A DNA stretch of 64,000 bases, from the NCBI GenBank assembly GCA_965207545.1, contig CBDBMS010000003.1, forward strand, positions 285,411-349,410, given 5' to 3'. Of this stretch, positions 35,997 to 57,260 are shown piece by piece. How positions within the stretch are numbered: the stretch's first letter is position 1; every line of letters starts with the position of its first letter. A program made the position numbers and the translations under genes. Source of the DNA: Gammaproteobacteria bacterium (GTDB lineage Bacteria > Pseudomonadota > Gammaproteobacteria > Tethybacterales > CBDBMS01). Below the pieces are notes generated by a model. That model was not told where the DNA came from. It was given only the letters and a program-made list of their open reading frames with translations, and searched no databases.

Positions 35997-36123
35997 CGCC
36001 TGGTCTCGGCCGAAAGTACAGGCTGTCGCCGGATTCCGGTTGGCCGACATATATTTTTGGTTTACAATACAATATCTTGTCAAATTCCATGCAGGAAACT
36101 GAAGAACTTGGCATGGAATTTTA

Positions 36124-39100
36124 TTGTCTATGGTACATGATGAACAATCTGACAGCGTTCGCAAAATGAGCCGGTTGCCGCATCCGGCCAGACGGGCCTG
36201 TCGTTCAGAACGGGGCTTCATCCATATTCTGCTGGTGGTGCTGGTGACGTTCGGCATCACCGTCTATGGGTTTCTTCCGTCACTTGAAGAGGCGCTCATC
36301 AGCAAGACCCGCCTGGAACATGAAAGATATTCCGATCTGTTCCGGGCCCGCGACGCTCTGCAGAAGTATGCCCTCTTGGGTCCGGACGACAGAGGGAGCG
36401 ACAGATCTGAAATGCCCGGGGTGGGAGTGCGGCGCTTTCTGCTTCCCTGTCCCGATCTTCCTGCCAGCGGCGAGGTGTTCTCCGATGGCATTAGCGAGAA
36501 CTCATGCTTGGGACCGGCCGGCAGCATTGATGTCAAGCGTGACATTGATCTTGACCTGAATGACGATCTGGACAGTATCCAGGCCACAAGCACCAAAGGG
36601 AACTTCATCGGTTTTCTGCCATCCCGGGTTGCCAATCCTCACGATGCCAACAGGCCGCCGCTGGGCATTCTGGGCGAGACCAACGAGACGAACAGCCGGA
36701 ACAAACTGATCTATCTTGTTTCGCCCAACCTGATCCGCCGCGACCGGCCACTTAACCCAACCAGCCTTGCCCGCCGTTCGGAGGACTGGCTTGAGCTGGA
36801 TAACGTCATTGACAGCACGTACTCGACCACGGATGGTCCCGTCCAACTGGAGAAGCAAAGCAACCGCATTGCGCTGATGATAATGGCGTCCGGAACCAAC
36901 ACTCCGGTGTGCAGTGCCGAATCGCCCAACTCAGCTGCCCAAAGAGTTGGCAGCTGGGTTGACCTGTTCTATGACTCTTCCGACCGTACAGCGGACTGCA
37001 CGTATCCGCCCTCCTACCGGCTGGACGGGAAGCAGCACAACCGCTCGCTCAGCCGTCTCTCCTACGTGAGCGCCGAACAGCTTATCACAGGAGGAAGTGC
37101 AGACTTTGAGGACATCGAGGTTAGCGGCAGGCCGGTGAATGACGTTGTTGCAGGGAACCTCAACGGAGTCGGGGTTGCAGATCTTCTCAAGGGCTATTAC
37201 GCCCGCTACGGCCACTATCCGGATCCGGCCGCATTTGACATCGTCACCGGCGCCGGCTACCTTGCTCCACTGCCGCATATCAGCGACGAGCCCCATTCGG
37301 ATTCGCTCTATCGGCGGGGCGGCCTGTCCCTGGAGGGGATCAGCGCGATGCACCACATGAATGCCACAGTTGTCACAGTTGGCGCCCTTGTCAGCCCCCA
37401 AGCGAAACGGATCCGGGTCAATCTGCCGGAGGACATTGCCTTTGACAACGGATCGGGCGGGGCAGGCAGCATCCTTCAGGTTCCTCCGTTCAACACTTTT
37501 CAGCTCAATCCCGGCAGCCACCTGAAGCTTGCCTCAACAGACGGTTTCATACCGGTGAACCTAACGTTGCCGACCGAAACGGCTTTCCGGACCATGGCAA
37601 CGCTTGGTTTCAAGCCGCTTGATCTTACCGCGGCGAGCGGGTTGGTGACAACCAATGTACGGCTACAGATGGGGAGCACCGTCACAATGGGCAATGATGT
37701 GGCAGCCGGCCGCGCCTACCGCAGCCACCATGAAACCTTTCTTCCTCCCGGCATGCAGGTGTTGACGGAATCGCAGTTTCTGACGCTCTTCGTCCCGAAC
37801 ACCCATTTGAATTTTGGCGGTGGTGTGACCATCACCCAAACCTCAATAGTCAATTTCCCCACAGATGAGGTCGTGGCGGTGGAGGGGATTGACGTGCGCG
37901 TTCCAAACAGTGCGGTTGTCGAGGAGTTACTTGCGGTGCAGTCGACCGGCGGGATCATGGTGGGTGCGGCCGGGCAGGGTGGCGTAGCGAGGAGCTTCGA
38001 GATCGAAGGGGACGTCATTGCGCTTGGCGTGATTCCCCATGCGGCCAGCCCTGATGTCACCATAGACGGGACCACCTACGTCAACTCCACTACAGAGGCG
38101 GATCTGCCTCTTCTGGCTCCGCTAAGGGTCTCCAACAAGGGCTTTCTGCCGGTCGACCACATTCCCGATCTAAACGTCGTGTGTGCCAGCGTCAACGTTG
38201 CGGTGGTGTCGCTGGTTTCTCCCGGCGGCGGCTGTGGATCTCCCTACCTGCCCAATGCGAATGTCGTGCTGGCGCCGGTCGAATCCGGCGCACTGAGGCT
38301 GTTGCTTCCGTCCGACATGGAATTCCTGTCGTTCCCGAGCGAAGAGGGCCACGGGGTGATGGTCGAATCCTTCCCGATCCTCAATGCCGCCGCGCGTGAT
38401 GCCGCCTTTGTTCCCAACGAGGCGCCGAGTGCCTTCCGTATGCCGGAAGCCGACTACCAGGTTCTGGACGGTTCCGGCGTATCCTCGTTTCCCTCCGCAC
38501 TGCTAGCCGGAATTGGCGTGAACACGGCGCTGGAGAGGAAGCCAGTTCCGATCAGTCTTCCGGCCGGTTCACAGCTGGTGATGCCTCTTTCCAGTTCCAC
38601 GTCACTGACACTTGGAAAGGGTTTTGATCTGCCTTTCGCCTATGCGGTTGTTCCTGCGGGCACCCGGCTTCCCGGCGTGCTTCCGCCGGGGTCGATCAGG
38701 CCTGATGGCCGTAAGGTTCCGTCAGTGCCGGCAAGCGATTTGGTGGAGGATGACATTCTTTTGCCGCGCGGCGGCATTGTCCACTTCAACAACCACCTGC
38801 CGGACGGGAACCGCCTGGTGCTGGCCTCCACATCCCTGCCGAACTACAGCGATCTGTCCATCAGAGGTGAGATGCGGAACTTGGCGTTTGAGGTTGTGGA
38901 GTCCATGGCGGTGCTCTATTCAGCCGGTTCAGGAGTGCCCACGCGGCTCACCTTGGAGAGCGGCTGCTTCGTGATGCCCTACCGCACCGCCTGGTACTGT
39001 GAGGAGGAGGTCTACAGAATACAGGATTCGGGTGATTTCCTGGAGACGGTCGGCAATTCACTGGTGGAGGTGGGCATCCAGAAGACCGATTTCCACCATG

Positions 39101-42100
39101 TCATGGAAGGGAACACGGATTACCGCTGGAGCTACAGGAGTGGAAATGCACTGGGTTTCGTCACCGCCGACAGTGTTGGAACCGCTCCGCCCGCCGGCGC
39201 GCCGATTCCTTCCCTCTATCTTGACGAGTCCACACGCATCCTCGCACCTGTCGGCGCCACGGTTCGAATTGCCGTAGATGCCGCCGGCGGCGAGCCGGGT
39301 CTTGCGATCAGCACCACTCTCGCGCCGATGCTTCTGAACCGGTATGCCGAGCAGTTGCGCGGCGATTCTCTTTACGTGATGGATTTGGACGCTGCCGACA
39401 GGTTCAGCCTGCCGGCAACGCCGCGGTCCGGCGGCAATCGGATCGACACGATACCGCTGAGGAACCAGCTCATCACCGTATCCCAGGCATTAGATTTTGA
39501 ACGCACCCGACTCATCTTCAACAGCGCCAATGTTTATTCCAGCCCGATTGAAACGACCGCGGACATACTTCTCACTCCTGGCGTTGATTCGATCCAGCCA
39601 GTAATAACGCTCAACTACAGCTTGACACCCTATTCTGACATGCTGCTGACCGGCACGGTCTCCGGTGCGGCGGTCAGCGTGACGGTACCGGCCGGCTCGA
39701 TTGTTGAGGTTGAATCGACACCGAGCGATTTTACGGTGTTGTCGCCAGAGGTGGTTCTGACCCGGACCGAGATCAGGCGCATCGCTCCGCATTTCGGCGG
39801 AGTGAATCTCGATCCTGCGATCATGCTGATCACGGTGTCGGCGGCTGTCTTGCGACAAACTGCGGAGCCTTTCCAAGTGGTGCGGATCAAGCCGGCACGG
39901 GGCGGAGGCTCGGTCAGCCGTGGCCGTTCGAAACTGTATACCCACTACGAGATCATGGGGGTCTTGCGCGAACAGGTGACGGTTCTTTTCGACAGCCCGT
40001 TTGAGCTTGATGCCTACACGTTTGAGCAGGGCGGTGACGCAGTGCGAAGGCTTGTAGTCAACGGCACCTTGGGCATGGATTCACGCATTTATCCGGAGGT
40101 TGCCATACACTTCTGGACCATCGACTTTGGGGTGAGCGACAATATCAATAACCAGCTAGTAGCCCCTCCTAACGTGGAGACCGCAACGCTCTACAGAGAT
40201 ACGTTCTCGGGTGACCAATATCCGGCGATTCCCAAGTACGCCGCCGGAACCGATCCGGGCAACCAGTTTGTGATGCCGGCTGGAACACGGGTTCTGCTGC
40301 CGGGTGCGAGTGCCTACGACTTTGGAACCGGCGAAATCAGTTCGGACCGGATTGTGTTCCTGCCGTCCCCAGTGTATGCAAATCCGGAGCTTGTAAGCAC
40401 AGTGACCATGTACGAGTTCCGCTCGCACCGTCTCGGCAACAATTTCAGTTCGGAGGTTGTGCTGTCGACAGCAACGGGCGAGACGAGCATTGATCTCGCC
40501 CCGCCACTGAGAACCACGCTCAGCGGTCTTGACCTGTTCACACCATCCGGAGGTGCGCTGTTGCGCGAGATTGACGGAGGGGCGATCGATTCCGAATTGG
40601 CAGGGGTGATGGTGACGACGCTGATTGAGGACCTGCCGGCGGGCTCCTGGCTCGACATTGCCGGCGGCAAGGTGCAGTGGCGCGGCACGGATCCGAGCTT
40701 GCCGGTGGAATCGATGCCTTCGGCGCTGGCGACCGTGCTTCGCGACACCCCGATGGTCTATGCCGTTGCGAACGAGTGCCGGCGCACCGCGTATCCGCAC
40801 CGCAGGGACTTCGGTCCCGAGTGCGCCTTGCGCGAGGGCGAAGGCCTCAAAATGAACGTTGCCGCAGGCTCTTGGCTGGATCTTCCGGAGGAGAAGGCGC
40901 TGGCGTCCCGTCGCATGGTGATTCGGGCCACGCCGGGTTCGCTCCTGTCGCCGACGATTTCCGTTTCGGTGCCGGCGTATGACCGGGACGCGATGAGGGA
41001 TGCCACAAGCACCGTCTATAACGACGTTCTTTGGGCGGAGGTGGACATGGGGGCGGCAGAACTCGTGCTGGTCACACTTGAATCGATGGTGCCGACAGGA
41101 ACTACGCTCTCATTCGCTTCATCCGGAACATTCCCGCATCTGCTTGATGCAGTGTTCCACGCTCCGGAACAGGGACTGGAGGTGGTTTACCTGAACGACG
41201 GCCAGAGCCTGTTTTCGGCGCTTTCGATGGCAGTCGACGACGGATACGGCAGTTTGGATTTCGTCAAGGCGCAGGTGACAACGAACCTGACTCTCTATCC
41301 GGGGGGGCAGTTCCAACTGTCGGACGGTTCCCTGTCGCGGGGCCACCGGCTGGTCGAGGTGCCTGCGGACGCGGCAATCACGATGGGTCCGGCAGTTCTG
41401 GTCACCAACGGAGGTCCCAACGCGGAAGGCCTGCTTAGCAACGGGGGCTGGCGTGGCGACATGACGCTTCAGGGTTTCCGTCCGCATCCGGGGAGTTCGT
41501 ACAACCTGACTGTTGACATGATGGGCAATCCTGCCTATGGCTACGACTATGACGGGTTGCCGGTCGTTGAGCGTGCGCCGCTGATCACCAGTACAAGCCA
41601 AGGCAGCCAGTTCCTGGACACCACGGGCAGCTACATGATGAAACCCGGATATGCCTGGAACGGTCTTATCGCCTCAGCGGCAACGATTTCCCTGCAAGAC
41701 ATGACACAGAGCAACTTCCGCACCGAAACGGCCTACCAAAACCGTGGCGGAGTGTTTGTCCGGCGCTATCCCGACTTGGACAGCTTTGCCAGAATGGGTT
41801 CGCACAATGTGATCCAGCTGGATGGCACGACGCGCACAGCCACGCTGCCTCTCCCGACTGTTGCAGTCACCGTATTCGCATCGGGCACCCGGGCGGGCCT
41901 GGAGTTCGATCTGTACGAGGCCGATCCGATCTTGGTGACATTTCACCTGTCCCATCTTTCCGCCGTAACCCTGGACGCCTCAACGCCGTTGCTGATGGAC
42001 GAGCATGGCACGGAGGATTTTCCGGTTGCGCGGAGAATCTACAATCCGAGCAGGCTGGTAGAGCCCTTTGTTGAAGAGGTTGTGTACGAGATTGATCCGG

Positions 42101-45100
42101 ATCTTCTGGCCGTTTATTCCGACAGTGCGTCAGCCCTGGTGACATTCGCGGGTCTCGACTACCAGGACGAGCTGGAGGTGAACTTCCATCCGAGAAGGCG
42201 TTCACGTGCCAGCGGGGTGGGGATGCACGTTTCGCATATGGCGCCCAACTTCTCCAGCCAATCCAACTCAATCGACCTGCTTGCGATGAACGACCTGTCC
42301 ACTATCAGCATTGACGAGGACGTTGCGGATCTGGCTGTGGAGGCAGCCGATTTCCTCCATGCGTACCGCGGTTCGGTGGTTGTCCACGAGCAGACTGCAG
42401 CAGGCTTGAACAGCACGGTGACCGTGTCGCCATTCCAACGTCCCCGCAACACCTACCAGGTGACGATCGGCACCGGCCAGCGGGCTGACGACGGCGCCAT
42501 TGCAAGCGGCGGCGGGCTGTTCGGCCTGCCGGTGCCAAGCGACTATGCAGTTACGGTTTCAGTGTCGCTTCGCGCAGATGTTCCCCAGGCGACGGCTCTT
42601 CCTGCATCGGTTTTTCACGAGGAACACTTCACCACGATACCTGCCAACCTGGAAATAGGCCGCAACGCGTTTTTCTCACTGAACAGAAGGCACGGGATCC
42701 AGACGACGCTGAAGTTCGGCTCCGACTTCACAATAGACGGCTATGCGTCGATCTGGCCGCAGAGTTCGCAGGGCGTTCAGAGCGGCTGGGGCTTTTCCGG
42801 CTTTACGGGGGACGGTTCGTATCAACTTTACTTCGAGAGGATGGCCGCGGAATTTGTGGATGGACCGCCTCCGGAAATCTGGCTCATGTTCCCCGAGCCG
42901 TATGCGAGTCTTCCATCGGCCGACGGCTCCATGATTGACGTCTATGCCGGAAGCATGATCAATCCCGTAACCGGTGAGATCATCCAGGCGCGGCCGTTTC
43001 CGGCAAGGGCTACGCTCACCCTGGGAGGCGGCGGAGCATCCGGCGCCATAGGCGGAACGGATGCAGACACGCCACGTCCGGTTTTGGCCACCCCGTTGGA
43101 TCCGCGGGTTCATCTCTACAACAGCTATAGCCTGCCGGTTGCCGCCGGACAGGCGCAATTTGACCCATTGCTTGTCCGGACGGCAGACGAATGGCAGGAC
43201 ACCATGGGCACAGCGGTGACACCGACCGGAGTCACCTTTTCCGGCGCCGCGGTGGATCCGCTCAGCACGCGTCACATACCACTGTGCTTTGACGACCAGA
43301 GCCGTCTGGCCGAGACGGCCGTACTCGGATGCCAGTCAGTGTTCACCGATGTGGACATGAATCTGCCCAACATGTCTACGCGAATCATTGCCGACCTGGG
43401 AGGGGCAGCCACTAGCACCATTGCCTGGGACGTTTCGAAATCGGAAACTTGGCTGGTGGAGAACGCCGCACATCCGTCCGCTTCGCTTGTGCACCGGGAT
43501 GTACATACCTTGGACGAGCTGTTGCTGAAGACCAGAAACAGAACAAACAGGTCACTTCGAAACGTCACGGAGATCCGGATTCCGGGCAATGAGGAACTCG
43601 TTGTCAACGCCTTCACACAGGCGCCAGAAGGGATTTCCGATTTCCGGTTTCCGTCCGGTTCCTGGGCGCGGGTAGGCGTTCCGGAGGGAACAGGACCGCT
43701 CACCAACCTGTCAGTGGGGATTGGCAACTGGGCATTCCCGAGCAGGGTGAGGCCGATACGCGGCACAATTAACCTTGATGTGGAATACGACGTTGCAATT
43801 GACCCGATAACACTGGACTGCGGGGGTTGCACGGTGACGGAGACAGACGTAACAGTGCCTATTAACGGCGTCGACACAACGATGCCGTCCCTGAGCGTCA
43901 CTGCGCCGCTGTCGCCAACGGAAACCTATGAGGCGAGCTATCCCTATCTGCACTTTACGGGCGCAAACGCGCCTCATCCCACGCTTGGACTGGCCTATCA
44001 GACTCCGATGGCCATAGGCACCCCCATGGTGTCCGGAGGCACATTGGTCGCGGCAACAACGTTGTCGCTGACAACATGGGCGGCATCCATTGCATTCGCA
44101 CCGGTCACCGGAGGAACGGGCGAGCTTCCGCTGAGGGTGTCGAACACTGACGACCGCGACAGGTTCCAGATCGACATGAAGCAGAACTTGTGGATAACTC
44201 TGCAGGACGATGTGGATGTGACCTATACATACCGTGGCGTGGTCACCACCCTGTTTCTTCCCGAAGGCACAATTGTGAATCCGATTGTGGGCACTTACCT
44301 GATTCCGCCCGGCGTGGGAGGTCGGCATGAGCGTCTGGAAAGCAGATCAAGCGCGCTTCTGGTGCCGAAAGGGCATCTGTCACTGACGCGGCCGGGACTG
44401 ATTCTTCCGAAAGGGGCGAGATTCCATGCGGCTCAAGGCGCACAGCTTGAAAACGTTCAGGCGGCGGTGTTTCACAGTCCGTATCCGCTGGAGAACGCCA
44501 AGGGTTGCGCAGTGGCTTCCGCGGCGCCTTTCGACCAGGTCCACGAAGGCGTGGTCCAGGGAGGCGCCACCCGGACAAGCGATCCGGTCTCAAGCGGTCA
44601 CATCTGCACGTATCTTGACACGCCGGAGAACACCGACTTCGACAATGTCTTCGACTACTACAGCGGGTCGCAGCGTTCACGTGGCAGAGTGGACCAGCCG
44701 ATTGACACCAATGACAGGGTCTACGCCCTGGGCGGACGTCTTGTCGGCGCGTTCCTGACCACCGTGTCCGCATCCATAGCGCCGCAGGCGATCACGCCGG
44801 GGCTGACGATCATCACTCCGGCAATTTCAGTGGCTGTGACAACGGCCATCCCGGTCACGACGCTGACACCGGCGGTGGTTCCGTTTGACGGCCCGACACC
44901 TCCGCCACTGGTGCCGCCGGTGCCGCCGGTGGGAGATAAGGAGTTTCTGCCTACCGGCGGAACAATTGTGACACACGACCCTCACCCCGCCGACGGTACG
45001 GAGTCCCAATTCAGTGTCCGCCCCGGGGTCATAATATTCAACAACATACACTTTACTGTTCCTCCCGGATCAGATGGTTATTTGCCGATATCGTTGGTCA

Positions 45101-49900: not shown

Positions 49901-52900
49901 ACACTGTGCGCGCTGACTGTGGCGTCGACTTCGTTACCGAGCGGAACCTATGAGACGGATGTTACGGTTGATCTGACAAGCGTTCAGGAGTTGGTGTCAG
50001 CGGGTACGCCAACGCTTACGATTCTCTGGGAAGCCCATCCGGTGCTTCTGACGCGTCCTATTCCCAACACCAACCCCTATCTCTCTTTCCTGCCGGACAC
50101 AGCATCGTTTCCCGCGGCTGTGAATCCGGAGAACCGACCCTTCGGTCTTGTGACCATGGACTATGGAAACTTGGCAGGCAACCGGGACATTACGCTAAGT
50201 GCAACCGGTTTGCCGGCGCTGGCGGCGCTGACGCTAGAGGAGGGAGTACTGACGCCTTTGACTTGCCGGATCACTGCCGGGACGCCTTGCACTGTCAGTG
50301 TCGCGAACGATCTTGGCGCTGTCGTGTTTATGGGCTCGATCGAGAACGCCCATGTGCTTTCCGCCGGAGACACAGTGACAGTTCAATGGAACGGCAATGA
50401 CGTTCTGGAAGTGGAGGCTCTCCCGGCTCAGCCGCTCAATGTTGTGGGAAGTCCCGCCACGGTTCGCTATGCGCCAACACCGCCTGGCCGCGGAATTCTG
50501 CAGGCGTTCGAGAGAGTGACCGTCGATTACTCCCCTGTCGACCCTGCGCTGACGTCCATCACGTTGGCAATCACCGCAAGCGGTTTGCAGACCGGCAACT
50601 CGCTTTCCGGCGATCCGATGCTCCCGGGTCAGAATGTCCAGTTCACCCCGGCAGCCAGTGTGCAGCCTGTCACATTGACGACCACCACTCCCGGCGATTT
50701 TACGTTCAGCCTAAACCTGACGCTTGCACCGAACCGTTTGGAGACAGGTTCGACAATGGCGCTGTCGGCGGAAGGCCTCCCGTTTCTCTCGATTCAACCG
50801 GCGACGCTAGGTTTCATGCCGGCGTCAGTAGGCTACGTCAACGCACCTGGAGGAATGAGGTCTCTTTTCGATGTCAACCTGATCTACAGCGGCAACGTCA
50901 GCGCAGCCGTGGCCAATGTGTTCCTGGAGCATGAGGGCTTTGATTTTCCTCAGGCTTCAGACCGGTTCCTGCTCTCGCTGAACACGACTCCTCCGGAGAC
51001 GTGCGACCTGCACAGGAATGCACCTGCGACATGTGACTGGACTTTCCCGCTGACAGGCGGCATGGCCAACATTCCAGTCGACGTCAGCCAATTCAGCGAC
51101 ATTGGGGGCGGTACCGCGTATCTGAAGTACCGCGGGGTAACCGTGCTTACCTTTATGCCTGCCATGCCAACGCTCAGTATTTCCCCAAACATGGCAACAT
51201 TTGATTCACTATTGGATGGTGCTCAACCAGCCATAGCAAGATTTTCCTATAGCCAGGGCCATCCAGGCGCGTTAGCTACGGACGTCACATTGACAGTAAG
51301 CGGGATAAGAGCCGGGAATTCTCATGTTCTACAGGCTACCGGCATCAACTGTTTTTTGGGCGCTGACGGTGAATGCGCATTCAGTTTTACGACTGGGTCC
51401 GACGGGACATACAATCTTGATCCCTTCGCCGTGACGCAATTTGATCGTGACTCTCAAGGTCCCCACCCGATTACAGTCAGCTGGAACGGCCAGGAGATTT
51501 TTGTGTGGACACCCATCCCGCCGTCGATCTCTGCCAATCCCGACAGATTTCAATTTAGGGCGGGTACGTCAGGGAACAACAGCGATCGTGTTAGCCCTCC
51601 TGTCACAGTCACGTATTCTTCACGCGATGTTAACTTATCAGAGGCCGTTCTCACCGTCACTGCATCCGGCCTTGCGAGCGGAGCCACCATCGCGATGGAC
51701 TTGGACATCATGCCGGCACAGTCATGCAGTTTCACTCGCGTTGCGGCCGAATGTGTTGTCACCTTGGAGAGTCCGTCGTCGACTGGGGAGTTCGAGCAGG
51801 AGTTGAGGACCACACTGGAGAACCCTGTTGCCCAGGGAGACGCCAATATGACGCTCTCAACGATAGACACCGACTTCTACATATTGGCACCCGCCTCTGT
51901 GACGCTCGGCTTTGCCCCCAACAGTGGACTGTTTGATCAACTGGGTATTGGGAGGCGCGACCACAGACCGGCATTTTCCTATAGCCAGGGTCTTCCAGGT
52001 GCGTCAAATACGACCGTCACATTGACAGTGAGCGGGCTGATGGGCACAGGTAATGGCTTAAATATGGACGTTGGTACCAATAGTTGCTCCCTGGGCCAGC
52101 TGATTGGCACTTTTGAGTGTGAACTCACTTTCACAACTCAAGCTGACGGGACGTTCAGTGCGAGCAGCCTGCTTAGGCTTCTCAGAGTTCAAGATCAAGA
52201 TGGCAACCCGGTCACAATCAGCTGGGACGGCCAGGAGGTTTTCGTGTTCGAACCGACACCGCCGTCGATCTCTGCCAGTCCCGACAGCTCTGCGTTTACG
52301 CCGACAGCCACTCCTCAGGTTTTCCGTTCCGTGCTCTCTTACGCTTCGCGTGACACCGGCTTGTCAAGAGCCACGATTACTGTCACTGCATCCGGCTTGC
52401 AGACTAACGTCACGGTTAGGTCGCGCTTCGACACCTCTCCAAGGCGAACATGCGACTTCACCACTGTTGCATCCCAATGCGTTCTCACATTGAGCGGACC
52501 GGATAGCTCCGGAACCTTCGATCATGAGATGACGGTCACATTGAGAAATCCTGATGACCAAGGCCAGTCCAATGTGACGCTCTCATGGGAAGACAATGAC
52601 TTCTACACCCTTTCGGTTCCAATGTCGTTGCTTAGCTTTACTCCCCGCGGGTTGTTGTTCCCCTTCAACGTAGAAGCTGTCAGAATTGCTGGTTTCTACA
52701 ACCAGAGACCTCCTGCATTTAGCTACTACACATCCAGTGGTGCAGGAACTTATGATGTCACGCTGGCCGAAAGCGGATTACAAACCGGCAACCAAATTTT
52801 CTTAAATTTGGACAGGTTCGGCGTTGATGAGTGCTCTCTAGTCGAAGATGGTACCTGCTCGTTCGCCGTTACCGTTGGTGCCAACAATTTTGCTAGCTTC

Positions 52901-53809
52901 GACTCAATAAGCTTTAGGACAGCCAGCTTTGCCGATCAGACCAATACGGTCACTATAAGTTGGGACAGCACTCCCGTCTTGATAGTTACACCGCCATCGC
53001 CAGGTTCAAATGCCGACTTCGGTTTTGATGCGACTGCTGCGTCTTTCAGGCAGGGCGCCAATCTTCTCGATGTGGCTGACAGGATCATCACGGTTGGCTT
53101 TGATTACGATTATGACAACCCAGCCCAGCCAGGCGGCTTTATGGGTCGAATACCCGCTCCCTTACTCACACTCACTGTCACCGGTTTGCAGACTCAAGTG
53201 AGCTTGGACACCAGCATACGCGGCAGCCAGTGCTCGTGGACTACCAACGGCTTGGGATGTGTTTATAACATGAGTGACTCGGGAACTGAGGGCATGTTCA
53301 GCGACACGTTGCTTATGACCTTGAAAATGGCGGGGAGACAGGGGACAAGTGCGATCACGCTTCAATGGACTCATCCCGTCTCGGGAACGAGCGCCGACGT
53401 GCTTACACTGACTCCGGCTGCACCGGCGGAGAGCTTGCGGTTCGATCCGATGACGGTTACATACACGCCTTCCTCTGGAACAACACCGGCATCTCTAGGT
53501 GATGTGACCCTCAACTACAACTCCGCCTCCGATTCGGCGGTCAGACAGTTTGTCACAATCACCTGGAACGCCTCTAATATGTCTTCGATTGACGAGATCG
53601 AGTTTCGTAACAGGTACATAGGCGTTAACCAGACGGCAACGCTCAGTCCCACGGAGACGACCGCTACGGTCGGTGTTGAAGGCAACTACGGCATTCTCTC
53701 ATCTGCCGTTACCATTTACGCAACGGATCCAAGTTCCCTTGGATCCGAGACGGTTGAAATCGACTGGGAGGGCGATACCGTTCTTGAGATTGAGGCGGCA
53801 ACACCATGA
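46964..53809 (+). CDS. giant (2281 aa) type IV prepilin-like protein with a long repeat-containing C-terminal extension
   Basis: Likely start ATG at 46979 (ATGA overlap with the upstream stop). ...RTRAGG|FTIVEMAIVLVVLGLLLSS has Gly-1, Phe+1 and Glu+5. GRPYLPCPDIDGDGLEDR and WGRLYIYRV motifs. The C-terminal third contains ~245-aa degenerate internal repeats and is AT-richer. Confidence 0.65.
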   Translation: MGALAMRDCVSRFSRSFRTGRKGADCPGFRTRAGGFTIVEMAIVLVVLGLLLSSALTPLRHRWENGKYEDERERIEQRRQALVAYATQNRTEERTVVLEDLGWSYTIPAGRPYLPCPDIDGDGLEDRLATSGLPDSGTAITLESASNFRGIAAAGGCQHYQGLFPWGSVGTEANDTWGRLYIYRVHPSFSNNVSGFDHLTRADVYDETSGLVVSTVTVNYAGKDLVPTSAISNDSIRFLYNTELSDQATVTVTTYQSLYESTATTTTATINGVTAVLVHDERPFGVCAPGVRAAAGATVTMSAHCPDADAVAGVALTMSTASNVVEFDPPRTGISGPLLVRAYMGSDNGADADDIPRSFKEGVVFGVVSTGQNGYGGFVRNAAGGLACGSHPVPDEPSPEVMHLSLLKNVSGHCSTLPTSYAPHYEGNLYYLPRTEPTTFEADSETSSPVGFDDVIGWMGPDEFVGKLARQDVFPVEMYPYIGLPLDSTTVAMSVAPALGVDYTGAPGSSVTIDPARDASGSARFVGRTDPPLPLSDGTTISLTVQVDQEDGNTTQVPFRFDTEDVTLTLEATGAPCVDDMDTPLPEITGGDSCLISVTGRVPADILLSVTGVTVDDFVNAAATIQMVPFIGTSPTVSLAHPSVAILTPNSAAGSIVFAPSDVFYTPAVAPGLEMLATLQALYIPEADGVPQTLTLEAASIPAGVTLTLGGVPSCISVGVNMCEYRFGGMTTEFDATLSAQDLTTAASFSVTVAGGGAVLTIRTRTAPFVDEFRVLGGSAATTYFRTGAPVLKRFALKGGGLQPLERLTVTVSISSNRMTSSEKFINTDISVATPEAECYDNVMVPPVQATMVGHGDHCVFELTGSNEARFLLRLNELRPELITLTTTPTGLELALRETTSTAPGVYFDPRVLPYITATPTPGATRLAGATLHVSTGTGAAPSSDFVFTLTSAPPSPIVLAAAFAAGVTPSTCSFSGGTTLCALTVASTSLPSGTYETDVTVDLTSVQELVSAGTPTLTILWEAHPVLLTRPIPNTNPYLSFLPDTASFPAAVNPENRPFGLVTMDYGNLAGNRDITLSATGLPALAALTLEEGVLTPLTCRITAGTPCTVSVANDLGAVVFMGSIENAHVLSAGDTVTVQWNGNDVLEVEALPAQPLNVVGSPATVRYAPTPPGRGILQAFERVTVDYSPVDPALTSITLAITASGLQTGNSLSGDPMLPGQNVQFTPAASVQPVTLTTTTPGDFTFSLNLTLAPNRLETGSTMALSAEGLPFLSIQPATLGFMPASVGYVNAPGGMRSLFDVNLIYSGNVSAAVANVFLEHEGFDFPQASDRFLLSLNTTPPETCDLHRNAPATCDWTFPLTGGMANIPVDVSQFSDIGGGTAYLKYRGVTVLTFMPAMPTLSISPNMATFDSLLDGAQPAIARFSYSQGHPGALATDVTLTVSGIRAGNSHVLQATGINCFLGADGECAFSFTTGSDGTYNLDPFAVTQFDRDSQGPHPITVSWNGQEIFVWTPIPPSISANPDRFQFRAGTSGNNSDRVSPPVTVTYSSRDVNLSEAVLTVTASGLASGATIAMDLDIMPAQSCSFTRVAAECVVTLESPSSTGEFEQELRTTLENPVAQGDANMTLSTIDTDFYILAPASVTLGFAPNSGLFDQLGIGRRDHRPAFSYSQGLPGASNTTVTLTVSGLMGTGNGLNMDVGTNSCSLGQLIGTFECELTFTTQADGTFSASSLLRLLRVQDQDGNPVTISWDGQEVFVFEPTPPSISASPDSSAFTPTATPQVFRSVLSYASRDTGLSRATITVTASGLQTNVTVRSRFDTSPRRTCDFTTVASQCVLTLSGPDSSGTFDHEMTVTLRNPDDQGQSNVTLSWEDNDFYTLSVPMSLLSFTPRGLLFPFNVEAVRIAGFYNQRPPAFSYYTSSGAGTYDVTLAESGLQTGNQIFLNLDRFGVDECSLVEDGTCSFAVTVGANNFASFDSISFRTASFADQTNTVTISWDSTPVLIVTPPSPGSNADFGFDATAASFRQGANLLDVADRIITVGFDYDYDNPAQPGGFMGRIPAPLLTLTVTGLQTQVSLDTSIRGSQCSWTTNGLGCVYNMSDSGTEGMFSDTLLMTLKMAGRQGTSAITLQWTHPVSGTSADVLTLTPAAPAESLRFDPMTVTYTPSSGTTPASLGDVTLNYNSASDSAVRQFVTITWNASNMSSIDEIEFRNRYIGVNQTATLSPTETTATVGVEGNYGILSSAVTIYATDPSSLGSETVEIDWEGDTVLEIEAATP

Positions 53810-55248
53810 TGAAGCGGGCCACATCACCGGCAACAGGTTCAGGTGCGGGCAGTCGCAGCGCCTTTGGTTTCTTCCGGATCGGTCTTGGTCCGTCGAGTTC
53901 CCATACTGTGGGTCCGATGCGTGCGGCCCGTGACTTCTGTGTTGATCTGCGTGACAAGGGCGTTCTGGAGAGCGTATCGCGCGTCCAGGCGTTTCTGCAT
54001 GGTTCGCTGGCGGCGACCGGAGTGGGACATGGCACCGATCGCGCCGTAGTTCTCGGCCTCTCAGGCGAAGTCCCCGAGGAAGTTGATCCGGTTGCGGCGG
54101 TGGAACTCGTGGAATCGGTTCGTGCACAAGGGAGAATCAGGCTTCTTGGTGTCCATGAGGTCGAGTTTGACATGTCGAAAGACATTGTCATGATCCGCCG
54201 TCCGTTGCCAACCCATCCGAACGGAATGGTTTTCGAGGCGGCGGATGCCTCTGACAGGAAATTGGGCAAGGCTGAACGCTATTCGGTTGGCGGCGGGTTT
54301 GTTACTGGTCCTGAAGATTCCGCCGGAGAGGAACAGGAAAACGTTGAATATCCATATCCTTTTGGCACCGGTGTGGAGCTTCTTGCAATGTGTGCACGGA
54401 AGGGCCTATCGGTGTCGGAGCTGATGATGGCGAATGAATGTGCACAAGGACTCGATGAGAGCGAAGTCCGTGCAGGACTGCTTGCCGTCTGGAATGCGAT
54501 GGTTGCTTGCATAGATGCGGGTTGTTCGAACAGTGGGATCCTTCCGGGTGGTCTTAGGGTGCGTCGCCGCGCACCGGATCTGTATGCGCAGCTGAAGACG
54601 GAGCACGGCTCGAACACCGACGACCTGCATATCTTGGACTGGGTTAACCTCTATGCGTTGGCGGTGAACGAAGAGAATGCGGCTGGCGGCCGCGTGGTGA
54701 CCGCACCGACAAATGGTGCGGCTGGGGTGGTTCCAGCGGTGTTGCGCTACTTTTCGGACTTTCGCGTTGCTAGGGCAGGACGTTGCATGGAGGACGAAAT
54801 AGTGTCGTTTCTGCTTGCTGCCGCGGCGGTGTGCGTCCTGTTCAAGCGCAATGCATCAATATCAGGAGCCGAGGTCGGATGCCAGGGCGAGATTGGTTCG
54901 GCATGTGCAATGGCTGCTGCGGGTTTGACGGAGGTTTCCGGCGGCACGCCGGAACAGGTGGAGAATGCCGCTGAAATAGGGCTTGAGCACAATCTTGGCC
55001 TAACTTGTGATCCGGTTGGAGGGCTTGTACAGATCCCGTGCATAGAGCGTAATGCTCAGGCGGCCGTCAAGGCGATCAATGCTTCCCGCATAGCGTTGCG
55101 TGGCGATGGCACACATCAGGTCTCGCTGGACCAGGTGATCAAGACAATGTGGAACACCGGACAGGACATGAAGCTTAAGTACAAGGAGACCGCTCGCGGA
55201 GGACTGGCTGCTACGGTTAAAATACCAGTGAATGTGGTTGAATGTTAG
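53806..55248 (+). CDS. sdaA: L-serine dehydratase (iron-sulfur, single-chain)
   Basis: [19 protein letters not shown]...[33 protein letters not shown]...[26 protein letters not shown]...[22 protein letters not shown] is collinear with SdaA. Start and stop both overlap the flanking prepilin-like genes. Confidence 0.88.
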
Positions 55249-56780
55249 GCATGGACAGCAAAGGGAAGAATAGGCTTGGTTGCGCGGGTGTGTCTCAGCG
55301 GGGCTACTCGCTGGTCGAGTTAGCCATTGTTCTGGCAGCTTTGGGGCTGTTTCTGGGTGGTGCGACGGTGCCCCTGTTTCAGCTCTACCGTAATTCCGCC
55401 ATTGACAAGACGGAGCAGCGCTTGGCGGATGTACATGCGGCGATAGCGGGTTATGCGGTCCGCCATAGGACTCCCGGACTTAGATATGTCGTAGAGACGC
55501 AGATTACCGATGCTTCGGGCAATCGGAGGTCGGATACGCGTTCCTACTGGATTCCCGCCAATCGACCCTATCTTCCGTGCCCGGACTACAACAGCGATGG
55601 CATTGAGAACAGAGTTGATCCGATGGCGGTTATCATGAGTCAGTTGATCAATGGGCATGTTGTTGATGTCAAGCCGGTCACTCTTAATCCGGCTGCGACG
55701 TATCCCTTGCTTCAGGAGATGCAGAATGAGAAGGATTTCACCACTGCAAATGCAGGAGTGAGAATGCGGTCGCTGGCTGAATATGGCGTGTGTGCGCACC
55801 ATCCGGGACATACCAGTGATTCGTCAAACTCGCACAATGCCAATGACCGGGGAGTGTTGCCTTGGCGTACACTCGGGGTTCTGCCGACGGATCGTTGGGG
55901 TGGAAGATTCACTTATCGTGCCGATACCGTTTACGCCTCGGCGCTTACTGGCTTTGGTCACGACACTTCGATCGACAGCTATGACCCTAGGGTGCCAATG
56001 CACTATCTCCAGAACGGCGGAAATCTGCGTCTCATGTCGCTGAGAAGGCCGTCAGTGTCGAATGGAGCTGCCGTCAACGATACCTTGACTCCCAAGTCCA
56101 TGGTGCCTTCAATGGTATGTTCGGAACCAGACTATAATGATGGCGGTGGAGAACGTCTTCACGTGTGCGATCCGGTTCGTCCTAATTCTACCGGTCTGAT
56201 TACCAGAATTAACTCGTCGATCAGTAGCTCCAACACTCAGCCTGAGCATGAGCTCCTTGTGGGAAGCGTTGCCACTGCCCAAGTTGGGCATACGCAGGAA
56301 AACATACGTCCGATACCGTTTCCTCTGGATCTTCTGACCGCGAGCAACCTTCCAGGTCACACATCGGCTGTACAGGTCGGAGGTGTTGTTGAAGGTCTCC
56401 CATACGTGGTTCTTTCCCATGGTCCGAACCAGCATTTTGCTGTTAAGCACCGCGAGGCGGCAGATGCTTTTGAAACCTTGTCCTCTTCGACCAGTCAGTG
56501 GAATCCTTGTCTTGTGGGTAGAGATTCCGTCAGAAGCAACGGCAGACTTAATACAGACGCCTCGATATTCGAGGCTCATAACAGTCCTTGTCCTGTGATA
56601 TACGCATCTGGCGCCAATAGGCAATATCCAACCTATCTGTTTGTCAAAAAGCTTGGCCCAAGTTGGGATGATGATTTCGATGACATCATTGAGTGGCGAA
56701 CCAGGAGCCAGCTTTTGGCCGATCTGTCTGAAGCTGGTGTCCTACCTGCTGCGGGTCTGCCATTGCTTTTAGTGCGTTAG
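55242..56780 (+). CDS. large (512 aa) type IV prepilin-like protein (class III signal peptide)
   Basis: ...GVSQRG|YSLVELAIVLAALGLFLGG has Gly-1 and Glu+5. NRPYLPCPDYNSDGIENR and WGGRFTYRA motifs. The 3' half is AT-richer. An alternative ATG at 55251 exists. Confidence 0.65.
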   Translation: MLGMDSKGKNRLGCAGVSQRGYSLVELAIVLAALGLFLGGATVPLFQLYRNSAIDKTEQRLADVHAAIAGYAVRHRTPGLRYVVETQITDASGNRRSDTRSYWIPANRPYLPCPDYNSDGIENRVDPMAVIMSQLINGHVVDVKPVTLNPAATYPLLQEMQNEKDFTTANAGVRMRSLAEYGVCAHHPGHTSDSSNSHNANDRGVLPWRTLGVLPTDRWGGRFTYRADTVYASALTGFGHDTSIDSYDPRVPMHYLQNGGNLRLMSLRRPSVSNGAAVNDTLTPKSMVPSMVCSEPDYNDGGGERLHVCDPVRPNSTGLITRINSSISSSNTQPEHELLVGSVATAQVGHTQENIRPIPFPLDLLTASNLPGHTSAVQVGGVVEGLPYVVLSHGPNQHFAVKHREAADAFETLSSSTSQWNPCLVGRDSVRSNGRLNTDASIFEAHNSPCPVIYASGANRQYPTYLFVKKLGPSWDDDFDDIIEWRTRSQLLADLSEAGVLPAAGLPLLLVR

Positions 56781-56979: not shown

Positions 56980-57005
56980 CCCCCCCCCCCCCCCCCCCCC
57001 CCCCC
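56980..57005 (+). repeat. homopolymeric poly(C) tract, 26 nt
   Basis: Uninterrupted C26 in the AT-rich intergenic region. It lies ~15 nt downstream of a TAGAAT hexamer and ~255 nt upstream of the first in-frame ATG of the tandem-repeat adhesin gene. Confidence 0.85.
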
Positions 57006-57260
57006 TTATTTTTGGTCTGACCGCTCAAAGACAAGTTGGAGGGCATCCAGCAGCAGCATAGTCAGTATTAGGGGTTGCCCTATTTATGCGTTGTATGTCT
57101 CACTGGTTAATTGTGTTGTCAAGGCATCCAGTAATTCCAGTGAGATTGTTGAACCACAATGTTACTCCATGCAATTACTGCAAAAAAGAATTGGCATTAC
57201 TCACAAATTTGTGTGGAGCATTGATCCTTGCAAAAAGTGAATTTCCAATTTCATTAAACC

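What the first reader, a model, noticed from the sequence alone, without database searches (positions are those of the whole stretch)
36124..56780. Translationally coupled operon of four paralogous giant prepilin-like proteins (3093, 526, 2281, 512 aa) — candidate novel pilus-tip or pseudopilus adhesin system
Paralogy and size:
- Four consecutive same-strand genes encode proteins that each start with a type IV prepilin-type (class III) signal: a short basic leader, an invariant Gly at -1, an aromatic +1 residue (F/Y) and a ~20-residue hydrophobic helix.
- Three of them carry the canonical Glu+5: G|YSIVELTIVLV at 45402, G|FTIVEMAIVLV at 46964/46979, and G|YSLVELAIVLA at 55242.
- The next ~100-450 aa are clearly paralogous in all four. 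They share the motifs RPYLPCPDxxGDGxEDR and WG(N/G)RxxYR(V/A), and in three of four (A/Y)(F/V)V(I/V)LS(P/H)G.
- Known pilins and minor pilins are ~120-200 aa, and the largest tip-associated minor pilins such as CofB/TcpB are ~500 aa. A 2281-aa and a 3093-aa protein with a pilin N-terminus are therefore far outside the usual size range.

Operon structure:
- Every gene junction shows ATGA-type or short start/stop overlap (45402/45405, 46979/46982, 53806/53809, 55242/55248), indicating one transcription and translation unit.
- No assembly ATPase, platform protein, secretin or prepilin peptidase gene is present in the window, so the machinery these proteins would use must be encoded elsewhere.

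Hypothesis: these are giant minor (pseudo)pilins that prime or cap a type IV-pilus or type II-secretion-like filament and display large C-terminal adhesin or effector payloads.
Basis: partly seen in the sequence, partly recalled or inferred. Interest (0 to 1): 0.9.

Follow-up and report, generated by a model that had tools for sequence, protein, structure and literature searches.

The report
Giant pilin-like proteins of sponge symbiont
A sponge-symbiont-type bacterium carries a conserved operon of four pilus-subunit-like proteins, two of them enormous (329 and 239 kDa), which most likely form the adhesive tip of a type IV filament; the idea of pilins carrying extra modules is known, but this protein family and these sizes are not described.

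Summary

- **B, C and E:** they share a canonical prepilin signal with Glu5 and a full roughly 450-aa module with no Pfam family.
- **A:** it lacks Glu5 and is only a profile-level relative over its first ~190 residues.
- **Conservation:** the same cluster, one giant Glu5-less protein (2,500-6,508 aa) followed by three module pilins, occurs in at least 12 small genomes of sponge symbionts (Tethybacterales).
- **Origin:** compact ancestors, a 300-920-aa Glu5-less protein plus a 225-250-aa module pilin, end an MSH-type type IV filament operon in free-living Betaproteobacteria.

Best reading: A is a GspK/PilK-like apical subunit split by about 2,300 aa of insert. B, C and E are the underlying minor pilins. 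C carries a lineage-specific 1,800-aa repeat stalk.

The assembly machinery is not in the window, and I could not test whether it exists elsewhere in the genome. I rate this a new variant of a known kind.

The parts
36040..36073 (+). Promoter-like sigma-70 site in the 127-bp gap between the upstream CN-hydrolase gene and A.
   Evidence: 2 overlapping sites found against 0.2 expected from shuffles. This is a consensus match only.
36124..45405 (+). Gene A: giant Glu5-less pilin-like protein. It is 3093 aa from the TTG start; the likely start is ATG 36166, giving 3079 aa and 329 kDa. Predicted cleavage site is SERG|FIHILLVVLV at 36214/36217.
   Evidence: Orthologous giants occur in 12 or more symbiont loci. 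There is no Pfam, NCBIfam or PDB sequence hit.
36166..37323 (+). A N-terminal pilin-like lobe (aa 15 to ~400): leader, hydrophobic alpha1, LPCPD motif at aa 107, 'GFLPSR', 'LMIMASG'.
   Evidence: Aligned with the Glu5-less family. hhalign against the module profile gives 98.7% probability, E 4e-16. tblastn to the L002 and L081 giants covers aa 12-438.
40621..40977 (+). Conserved island inside A (aa 1500-1618), 'PMVYAVAxEC...C..GEGL'. It is the best-conserved stretch of the middle region.
   Evidence: 29-39% identity to eight other giants.
44176..44742 (+). A C-terminal pilin-like lobe (aa 2685-2873), ending in 'GHICTYLDTPENTDFDN...NDRVYALGGRL'. In the other giants and in the compact homologues this is the C-terminus.
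44743..45402 (+). Extra 220-aa tail of A beyond the conserved C-terminal motif. Most other giants lack it.
45402..46982 (+). Gene B: Glu5-bearing module pilin (526 aa), G|YSIVELT. The module spans aa 20-405 and is followed by a ~120-aa C-terminal domain.
   Evidence: 326 bits against the family profile. A positional orthologue exists in L001.
46964..53809 (+). Gene C: Glu5-bearing module pilin with a giant C-terminal extension. It is 2281 aa, or 2276 aa (239 kDa) from ATG 46979.
   Evidence: The module spans aa 30-481 and scores 234 bits. Among the 150 best family representatives only three others exceed 600 aa (685, 1205, 1258).
48419..53806 (+). C extension (aa 486-2281). It is Thr-rich and Lys-poor, with Cys-pair units. 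The ~245-aa tandem repeats span aa 1017-2280 (50012-53803).
   Evidence: No homologue was found in any related locus or in PDB/Pfam.
53806..55248 (+). Gene D: sdaA, L-serine ammonia-lyase. It is a metabolic gene embedded in the operon and not a pilin.
   Evidence: It holds the same position in L001 and L014.
55242..56780 (+). Gene E: Glu5-bearing module pilin (512 aa), G|YSLVELA.

Best explanation
The locus is a conserved operon of sponge-symbiont (Tethybacterales-type) bacteria. It encodes a four-subunit set of type-IV-pilin-like proteins.

**Gene A: the apical subunit**
- A has a prepilin-type leader and hydrophobic alpha1 but no Glu5, the hallmark of GspK/PilK-type tip subunits.
- Its pilin-like core is split into an N-terminal lobe (aa ~15-400) and a C-terminal lobe (aa ~2685-2873).
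- The two lobes are separated by about 2,300 residues of unassigned sequence, which I infer to be the displayed passenger.

**Genes B, C and E: the subunits beneath it**
- They are three old paralogues of a ~450-aa, Glu5-bearing, GspG-like module.
- I infer that they dock beneath A through alpha1/Glu5 contacts.
- C adds an ~1,800-aa stalk of tandem, probably beta-sandwich, repeats that arose recently.

**Origin (shown)**
- The set derives from the last two genes, a Glu5-less protein and a compact module pilin, of an MSH-type type IV filament operon found in free-living Betaproteobacteria.

**Mechanism (inferred)**
1. A prepilin peptidase encoded elsewhere processes the four proteins.
2. They assemble at the inner-membrane platform as an initiation/tip complex.
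3. A type IV filament machine pushes the complex outward, exposing acidic, lysine-poor mega-passengers that attach the symbiont to sponge cells or matrix.

sdaA is a passenger metabolic gene with no role in the structure.
For: **Shown**
- Class III-type N-termini: B, C and E carry Glu5 and A does not. The family profile matches the leader plus alpha1 of solved pilins (E 3e-6). E passes TIGR02532.
- B, C and E each contain the whole module (399, 326 and 234 bits for E, B and C), with 30 invariant columns across 24 sequences.
- A's N-terminus is homologous to the module at profile level (98.7%, E 4e-16). A shares its N-lobe, a mid island and a C-lobe with other giants.
- A's C-lobe aligns with the extreme C-terminus of 410-511-aa compact homologues. 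The giant is therefore a compact protein with inserts.
- The architecture 'one Glu5-less giant plus three Glu5 pilins' recurs in 12 or more genomes of 1.6-2.05 Mb, with giants of 2,500-6,508 aa.
- In Azospira, Methylophilaceae and others, the compact pair closes an operon. Its gene order is ExeA/MshM-like AAA, MshL secretin (TIGR02519 263 > 250), a TPR protein, a GspE/PilB-type ATPase with an MshE c-di-GMP motif, GspF, and three unknown proteins.

**From the literature**
- PilK/GspK homologues invariably lack Glu5 and sit apically. CpaL and others carry large inserts between the pilin sheet and a C-terminal strand (PMC13533445).
- Modular pilins are a recognised way to display adhesins (PMC8179133).
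- A T4aP machine was predicted in one Tethybacterales MAG (PMC12625764).
Against: - No filament machinery, major pilin or prepilin peptidase lies in the 64-kb window or within 10 kb of the cluster in any symbiont locus. I could not examine the rest of the genome.
- Curated pilin HMMs are borderline or negative for A, B and C.
- A folded 329-kDa passenger is hard to pass through a secretin.
- The passengers match no known adhesin domain, so adhesion is inferred only from composition, repeat architecture and analogy.
- The model of the compact homologue was built from only 9 sequences. I could not inspect coordinates to see whether the terminal strand completes the N-lobe sheet.
Confidence: 0.55

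Rival explanations
1. The proteins are orphaned membrane-anchored envelope proteins. In these reduced genomes the filament machine has been lost. The pilin N-terminus now serves only as an inner-membrane anchor (cleaved or not) for very long periplasmic or envelope-spanning proteins. No filament is assembled.
For: - The cluster is never next to machinery genes in the symbiont loci, whereas in free-living relatives it always is.
- The genomes are small, 1.6-2.05 Mb.
- The passengers are too large for easy passage through a secretin (my inference).
Against: - Glu5, the Gly at -1 and the whole alpha1 are invariant in the three module pilins across the family. The one-Glu5-less-plus-Glu5-bearing stoichiometry is also conserved. 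Neither would be needed for a mere anchor.
- A T4aP system was reported by TXSScan in one Tethybacterales MAG (PMC12625764).
Confidence: 0.2
2. The proteins are the pseudopilus of a type II-secretion-like exporter and not an adhesive pilus. B, C and E act as GspG/H/I/J-like pseudopilins and A as a GspK-like cap of a short periplasmic piston. The large domains interact with cargo or with the secretin.
For: - The closest fold for both families is the major pseudopilin GspG. The weak NCBIfam hits are to GspG and GspH.
- The related operon has GspE/GspF-like components (best NCBIfam matches, all below the curated cut-offs), and no retraction ATPase was seen.
Against: - The secretin passes the MshL (pilus-type) equivalog cutoff, not the GspD one (263 vs 250, against 171 vs 351).
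- The ATPase carries the MshE-type c-di-GMP motif.
- GspC, GspL and GspM were not recognised.
- A 239-329-kDa pseudopilin cannot fit a periplasmic piston.
- Tandem repeat stalks are typical of surface adhesins (established knowledge).
Confidence: 0.15
3. The giant ORFs are artefacts: assembly or merging errors, or decaying pseudogenes.
For: - C's extension is repetitive and has no homologue elsewhere.
- Public annotation of E starts 60 codons downstream.
- The word-index protein search did not return A or any giant.
Against: - Uninterrupted ORFs of 9.3 and 6.8 kb cannot arise by chance in ~60% GC DNA.
- Independent assemblies from different sponges carry intact orthologous giants of 2,500-6,508 aa with the same N- and C-terminal lobes.
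- C's repeats are only 25-46% identical, so they are not prone to collapse or expansion in assembly.
- The ATGA couplings are precise.
Confidence: 0.03

Closest known systems
GspK / XcpX / PilK / PilX apical minor (pseudo)pilins, and CpaL of Tad pili
   Same: - A and its compact homologues have a prepilin-like leader and alpha1 without Glu5, and there is one such gene per cluster, placed next to Glu5-bearing pilins.
- A large insertion separates the pilin sheet from a conserved C-terminal segment. This is the arrangement described for CpaL and for the Thermus and Vibrio PilK homologues in PMC13533445.
   Different: - There is no match to the Pfam T2SSK models or to the GspK structure.
- The insert is ~2,300 aa (up to ~6,000 in L080), against ~180-470 aa.
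- The gene comes first in the cluster.
- A duplicated-lobe architecture with LPCPD/YLExxN/NDR motifs is specific to this family.
Modular type IV pilins (S. sanguinis PilB/PilC, CofB/TcpB, ComZ; Raynaud et al. 2021, PMC8179133)
   Same: C is an N-terminal pilin module with a grafted C-terminal passenger, presumably exposed at the tip.
   Different: - The pilin module itself is ~450 aa instead of ~120-150 aa.
- The passenger is ~1,800 aa of family-specific repeats with no InterPro or Pfam signature.
- The survey's most extreme multi-domain case was 860 residues.
MSHA pilus system of Vibrio (MshL/M/N/E/G and minor pilins MshD/O/P with the large MshQ)
   Same: - In free-living relatives the compact genes end an operon with an MshL-equivalog secretin, an ExeA/MshM-like AAA protein, a TPR protein, an MshE-type c-di-GMP ATPase and a GspF-like platform.
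- A large tip-associated protein accompanies the minor pilins.
   Different: - MshQ is not a pilin, whereas here the large protein carries the pilin N-terminus itself.
- The pilins do not match MshA/B/C/D/O/P models.
- No msh machinery lies in the window.
GspG major pseudopilin (EpsG, PulG)
   Same: - From my recollection of GspG sequences, the motif order is similar: DxWGxxYxY ... SxGxxG ... DDIxxW.
   Different: - TIGR01710 scores 14-31 bits against a cutoff of 88.85.
- The module is 3-4 times larger, with conserved Cys pairs and an RPYLPCPDxxGDGxEDR loop absent from GspG.
PilY1 / PilC tip adhesins
   Same: The presumed role is the same: a very large protein presented by a minor-pilin tip complex.
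   Different: - PilY1/PilC are non-pilins that use a Sec signal and a C-terminal beta-propeller.
- No such domain was found in A or C.

Membership tests
Type IV pilin-like proteins (class III signal peptide; PF07963 / TIGR02532 / IPR012902) | Short basic leader ending in Gly(-1), followed by a ~20-residue hydrophobic alpha1N | tested here: met
   All four proteins show this: A SERG|FIHILLVVLVTFGITVYG, B VRG|YSIVELTIVLVAGALLASG, C AGG|FTIVEMAIVLVVLGLLL, E QRG|YSLVELAIVLAALGLFL.
Type IV pilin-like proteins (class III signal peptide; PF07963 / TIGR02532 / IPR012902) | Glu at +5 | tested here: met
   Met for B, C and E, and invariant in the 24-sequence family alignment. Not met for A (Leu at +5), as in GspK/PilK-type subunits.
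Type IV pilin-like proteins (class III signal peptide; PF07963 / TIGR02532 / IPR012902) | Score above the curated HMM threshold | tested here: inconclusive
   E passes TIGR02532 (19.0 > 16.3) but is below the Pfam GA (20.1 < 21.2). C is below both (14.7 and 18.0). A and B give no hit. Relatives P0171, P0156 and the compact L031/L049 pilins pass Pfam. The family profile hits PDB pilin N-termini at E 3e-6.
Type IV pilin-like proteins (class III signal peptide; PF07963 / TIGR02532 / IPR012902) | Pilin fold: long N-terminal helix packed on an antiparallel beta-sheet | tested here: inconclusive
   [not shown]
Type IV pilin-like proteins (class III signal peptide; PF07963 / TIGR02532 / IPR012902) | Cleavage and N-methylation by a prepilin peptidase, then polymerisation by a type IV filament machine | not testable with these tools
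   No peptidase or machine lies in the window.
GspK/PilK-type apical minor pilin | Lacks Glu5; a single copy accompanies Glu5-bearing minor pilins | tested here: met
   A and every orthologue or compact homologue have L, V, M or I at +5. There is one per cluster. The criterion is taken from PMC13533445.
GspK/PilK-type apical minor pilin | Sequence or structure match to GspK (Pfam T2SSK; PDB 3CI0 chain K) | tested here: not met
   [not shown]
GspK/PilK-type apical minor pilin | C-terminal beta-strand that completes the pilin sheet | tested here: inconclusive
   A conserved C-terminal 'NDRxxxxGGxL' segment is present. A predicted terminal strand lies at residues 406-409 of the compact homologue. 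Contacts could not be inspected. A carries 220 further residues after this segment.
MSH-type type IV filament system | MshL-type secretin, MshE-type ATPase with c-di-GMP-binding N-domain, GspF-like platform and ExeA/MshM-like AAA protein in one locus with the pilin genes | tested here: not met
   Not met in the window. Met in loci of free-living relatives that carry the compact homologues, L031, L049 and L059. The link is therefore evolutionary and has not been shown for this genome.
GspG major pseudopilin (TIGR01710 / PF08334) | Score above the equivalog cutoff | tested here: not met
   Scores are 18.7 (C) and 13.9 (E) bits against a cutoff of 88.85, over the N-terminal helix only.
Modular pilins (sensu Raynaud et al. 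2021) | N-terminal pilin module fused to an additional non-pilin module | tested here: met
   C has the module at aa 30-481 plus a 1,800-aa repeat extension. B carries a ~120-aa extra C-terminal domain. The extra modules have no database signature.
PilY1/PilC or MshQ tip adhesins | Non-pilin protein with a Sec signal and a C-terminal beta-propeller (PilY1) domain | tested here: not met
   A and C begin with pilin-type N-termini and give no PilY1/Neisseria_PilC Pfam hit.

The most novel reading that the evidence does not exclude
Tethybacterales sponge symbionts have turned the two terminal pilin genes of an MSH-type filament into a dedicated 'mega-tip'. It would consist of a Glu5-less cap interrupted by 2,300-6,000 residues plus three 450-aa pilins, one of which can grow a repeat stalk. 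These would be the largest pilin-like proteins known. A type IV filament machine would thread or present them as the main host-attachment organelle of one of the most widespread sponge-symbiont clades. This would also define a new pilin-module family (RPYLPCPDxxGDGxEDR) and a new way to build tip adhesins: insertion into the apical pilin instead of recruitment of PilY1/MshQ.
Probability: 0.35. Interest if true: 0.8.

Novelty: new variant of a known kind. Interest (0 to 1): 0.62.

Why it matters
**For symbiosis biology**
- Tethybacterales are dominant, broadly distributed sponge symbionts with reduced genomes. How they attach to or are recognised by their hosts is unknown.
- None of the Tethybacterales papers I could search mentions this cluster.
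- The cluster takes 20.6 kb, about 1.3% of a 1.58-Mb genome. It is conserved across families of the order and evolves rapidly in its passenger parts. That profile fits a host-interface determinant.

**For type IV filament biology**
- It offers natural extremes of the 'apical pilin with insert' and 'modular pilin' designs: 239 kDa, 329 kDa and up to 6,508 aa.
- This raises a concrete question about how much cargo a tip complex and a secretin can carry.
- The compact version in cultivable Azospira sp. I13 provides an experimentally tractable entry point.

**For annotation**
- The module (230 representative clusters at E <= 1e-30) and the Glu5-less partner family have no Pfam or NCBIfam model.

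Tried and rejected
- **Whole-A homologue search:** A second search with an alignment of Glu5-less N-termini returned only 7 compact proteins and no giants. Orthologous giants were therefore taken from fetched loci.
- **Identifying the window's own genome:** exact look-ups of E as annotated (P0001) and of SdaA both failed. P0012 also failed. The rest of the genome could not be inspected for pilD or machinery genes.
- **Foldseek against AFDB:** the library was unavailable.
- **Sequence searches for the large regions:** PDB searches with A, C and the Glu5-less profile found nothing. Pfam and NCBIfam on A and C found nothing credible. The PTS-HPr hit in C and the heme A synthase hit in B are noise.
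- **Internal repeats:** none were found in A. A profile built from C's repeats did not detect the extra domains of A or B.
- **Deep orthology of B, C and E:** an NJ tree did not resolve it across symbiont families. I claim only that each has a positional orthologue in L001.
- **One literature search** (AqS2 plus pilus terms) was unproductive.
- **Readings rejected:**
  - The minus-strand operon at 16-30 kb is not the missing secretion machinery. It is leuS, lptE, trkAH, nth and similar genes.
  - sdaA is not part of the pilin system.
  - A is not a PilY1 or MshQ homologue.

Full report
**1. What is in the sequence**

The + strand between 36124 and 56780 carries five contiguous ORFs:

| Gene | Coordinates | Length |
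|---|---|---|
| A | 36124-45405 | 3093 aa from a TTG; probable start ATG 36166, 3079 aa, 329 kDa |
| B | 45402-46982 | 526 aa |
| C | 46964-53809 | 2281 aa; 2276 aa from ATG 46979, 239 kDa |
| D | 53806-55248 | 480 aa |
| E | 55242-56780 | 512 aa |

- The junctions are ATGA overlaps at A/B, B/C and C/D, and a 7-nt overlap at D/E.
- A promoter-like site lies in the gap upstream of A.
It has nothing to do with pilins.
- The rest of the window is housekeeping: Lon-domain protein, gshA, efp, pstSCAB, ppsA, thiE, nth, trkAH, lptE, leuS, dapD, a ZnuA-type ABC transporter and a CN hydrolase. No filament machinery is present.

**2. The N-termini**

- B, C and E carry G|YSIVELT, G|FTIVEMA and G|YSLVELA followed by hydrophobic helices. 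These are the only such motifs in all six frames of the window.
- A has SERG|FIHILLVVLV, a Gly(-1)/Phe(+1) hydrophobic segment with Leu in place of Glu at +5.
- Curated models are borderline. E passes TIGR02532, while C and E fall just under Pfam N_methyl, and A and B give no hit.
- A profile of the family matches the leader plus alpha1 of solved type IV pilins (E 3e-6 to 1e-3), and relatives pass Pfam.

**3. Paralogy**

- B, C(30-481) and E each contain a complete ~420-500-aa module (326, 234 and 399 bits against the family profile).
- The module has 30 invariant columns, including Glu5, RPxLPCPDxxDGxExR, GxLPxxTL, DxW, SxG and DDxxW.
- A is not detected by BLASTP or by that HMM.
- When A is aligned with its own relatives, the Glu5-less proteins, the profile matches the module profile at 98.7% probability, E 4e-16. 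The match runs over the leader, alpha1, the LPCPD loop and the 'GRLPWRTLG ... LWYA' strands.
- A is therefore a remote paralogue of a different lineage, not one of four equivalent copies.

**4. Relatives and host**

- A word-index search with E found only 27 proteins in 5.8 billion.
- An exhaustive profile search found 230 representative clusters at E <= 1e-30, nearly all 350-530 aa long.
- Loci fetched from genomes come from sponge-symbiont MAGs of the Tethybacterales: Ca. Zeuxoniibacter abyssi, Ca. Tethybacter castellensis, Ca. Amphirhobacter, Ca. Persebacter and AqS2, plus unnamed gammaproteobacterial MAGs with chromosomes of 1.7-2.05 Mb.
- In every case the architecture is the same. One giant Glu5-less protein (N-terminus RG|F(I/V)(H/Q)(I/V)(L/M)L) is followed by three Glu5 module pilins.
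- Giant sizes seen are 2,579, 2,598, 3,320, 3,329 and 6,508 aa.
- sdaA sits before the last pilin gene in L001 and L014 as well.
- Each of B, C and E pairs with its positional counterpart in L001.
- No paper on Tethybacterales in the library mentions the cluster.

**5. Anatomy of the giants**

A shares three islands with the other giants:
- the N-lobe (aa ~12-440);
- a short mid island (aa 1500-1618, 'PMVYAVAxEC');
- a C-lobe (aa 2685-2873) ending in 'GHxCxYLDxxENTDxD...NDRxxxxGGxL', which is the C-terminus of the other giants.

Other points:
- A carries a further 220-aa tail.
- Compact homologues of 410-511 aa contain both lobes back to back, and A's C-lobe aligns with their extreme C-terminus. 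The giant is thus a compact Glu5-less pilin-like protein with ~2,300 aa inserted between its lobes.
- The insert has no detectable repeats, Pfam hit or PDB hit.
- C's extension (aa 486-2281) is absent from all relatives. Its L001 orthologue is 703 aa.
- From aa 1017 the extension is built of five to six ~245-aa tandem units at 25-46% identity, with Cys pairs.
- A, B and C are acidic and lysine-poor (0.5-1.1% Lys against 2-4% in neighbouring housekeeping proteins).

**6. Evolutionary origin and the machine**

A shorter form of the module (224-252 aa) occurs in Thiobacillus, other Hydrogenophilales, Rhodocyclaceae (Azospira sp. I13) and Methylophilaceae. There it is the last gene of an operon with this order:
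1. an ExeA/MshM-like AAA+SPOR protein;
2. a secretin that passes the MshL equivalog cutoff;
3. a TPR protein;
4. a GspE/PilB-type ATPase with the MshE c-di-GMP-binding motif;
5. a GspF-type platform;
6. three unassigned proteins;
7. in most loci, a 300-920-aa Glu5-less protein (RG|AALL...) carrying the same LPCPD/GRLPWxTLG motifs.

The pair 'Glu5-less protein plus module pilin' therefore belongs to an MSH-type type IV filament. The symbionts retain an expanded version of only these two gene types at a separate locus.

**7. Structure**

- AF2 of E with 24 sequences gave pTM 0.79 and pLDDT 72, with a helix at 24-74 followed by strands.
- AF2 of the compact Glu5-less P0175 with 9 sequences gave pTM 0.76. 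It shows helix 11-67, a beta lobe, helix 235-261, a second beta lobe and a terminal strand at 406-409.

**8. Interpretation**

- PilK/GspK-type subunits 'invariably lack Glu at +5' and are apical. CpaL and some PilK homologues carry large inserts between their sheet and a C-terminal strand that licenses tip-complex assembly (PMC13533445).
- Modular pilins that graft adhesive modules onto a pilin are widespread. The most extreme multi-domain example in that survey was 860 residues (PMC8179133).
- Against that background, A is best read as the apical subunit with an extreme insert, and B, C and E as the Glu5-bearing subunits beneath it. C is a modular pilin with a repeat stalk.
- The combination would be a tip or initiation complex that displays mega-passengers, plausibly for attachment to the sponge.
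- Shown: the homologies, the architecture, the conservation and the operon link in free-living relatives.
- Inferred: processing, assembly, tip location and adhesion.
- One Tethybacterales MAG was reported to encode T4aP (PMC12625764), but I could not examine this genome beyond the window.

**9. Rivals**

- **Orphaned inner-membrane-anchored envelope proteins after loss of the machine (0.2).** This fits the lack of linkage, but it does not explain the invariant Glu5 and the conserved stoichiometry.
- **A T2SS-like pseudopilus (0.15).** This fits the GspG-like fold, but not the MshL/MshE signatures or the passenger sizes.
- **Artefact (0.03).** This is excluded by the independently assembled intact orthologues.

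**10. Verdict**

- It is a new variant of known kinds (apical minor pilin with insert; modular pilin), built on a protein family that has no curated model and is specific to a major sponge-symbiont clade.
- Interest 0.62.

Noticed in passing
window 53806-55248: An intact L-serine dehydratase gene (sdaA) is embedded in the pilin operon, with an ATGA overlap upstream and a 7-nt overlap downstream. It occupies the same position, before the last pilin gene, in two other symbiont loci (L001, L014). Why a catabolic enzyme is co-translated with the pilin-like genes is unexplained.
   Followed up: partly
window 57258-64000 (runs off the end): Another giant ORF of at least 2,247 aa starts with a Sec-like signal. 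From 57721 it consists of 18.6 tandem copies of a 339-bp (113-aa) unit at 87% identity. GC is 0.74 there against ~0.59 for the rest of the window. No credible Pfam domain was found. It is probably a second, unrelated repeat adhesin.
   Followed up: partly
window 56980-57005: A homopolymeric tract of 26 C lies in the 477-bp gap between E and the downstream repeat ORF, ~255 bp upstream of that ORF's first Met. It could be a phase-variable promoter tract or a sequencing-error hotspot.
   Followed up: no
window 55242-55421 (E N-terminus): The public protein record for E (P0001, 452 aa) starts at Met61, which removes the whole prepilin signal and alpha1N. The giants were not retrievable from the 5.8-billion-protein collection at all. 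Such genes are likely under-annotated in MAGs.
   Followed up: partly
window 36124-53809 (A, B, C): There is strong lysine depletion (A 1.1%, B 0.8%, C 0.5%; C extension 0.3%) compared with 1.9-4.2% in seven housekeeping proteins of the same window. pI is acidic (4.4-5.0), and C is Thr-rich (11.8%).
   Followed up: partly
L080 1-8682 (ENA ERZ21788738 ctg58025c, 1.97 Mb): The orthologous Glu5-less giant in this symbiont genome is called at 6,508 aa, twice the size of A. It has the same conserved C-terminal motif and the same three downstream pilins.
   Followed up: partly
L049 10808-12115 and L051 11289-12677: In Azospira sp. I13 a class III adenylate/guanylate cyclase gene directly follows the compact module pilin. 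A similar-looking gene follows it in L051, judged by eye only. Together with the MshE-type c-di-GMP motif of the ATPase, this hints at cyclic-nucleotide control of the ancestral system.
   Followed up: no
L045 12644-13369, L059 12621-13271: In Hydrogenophilales loci a conventional 216-241-aa prepilin (N_methyl 33.6 bits in L059) lies ~2.5 kb downstream of the compact module pilin. It is a candidate major pilin for the ancestral system. No equivalent small pilin exists in the window.
   Followed up: no
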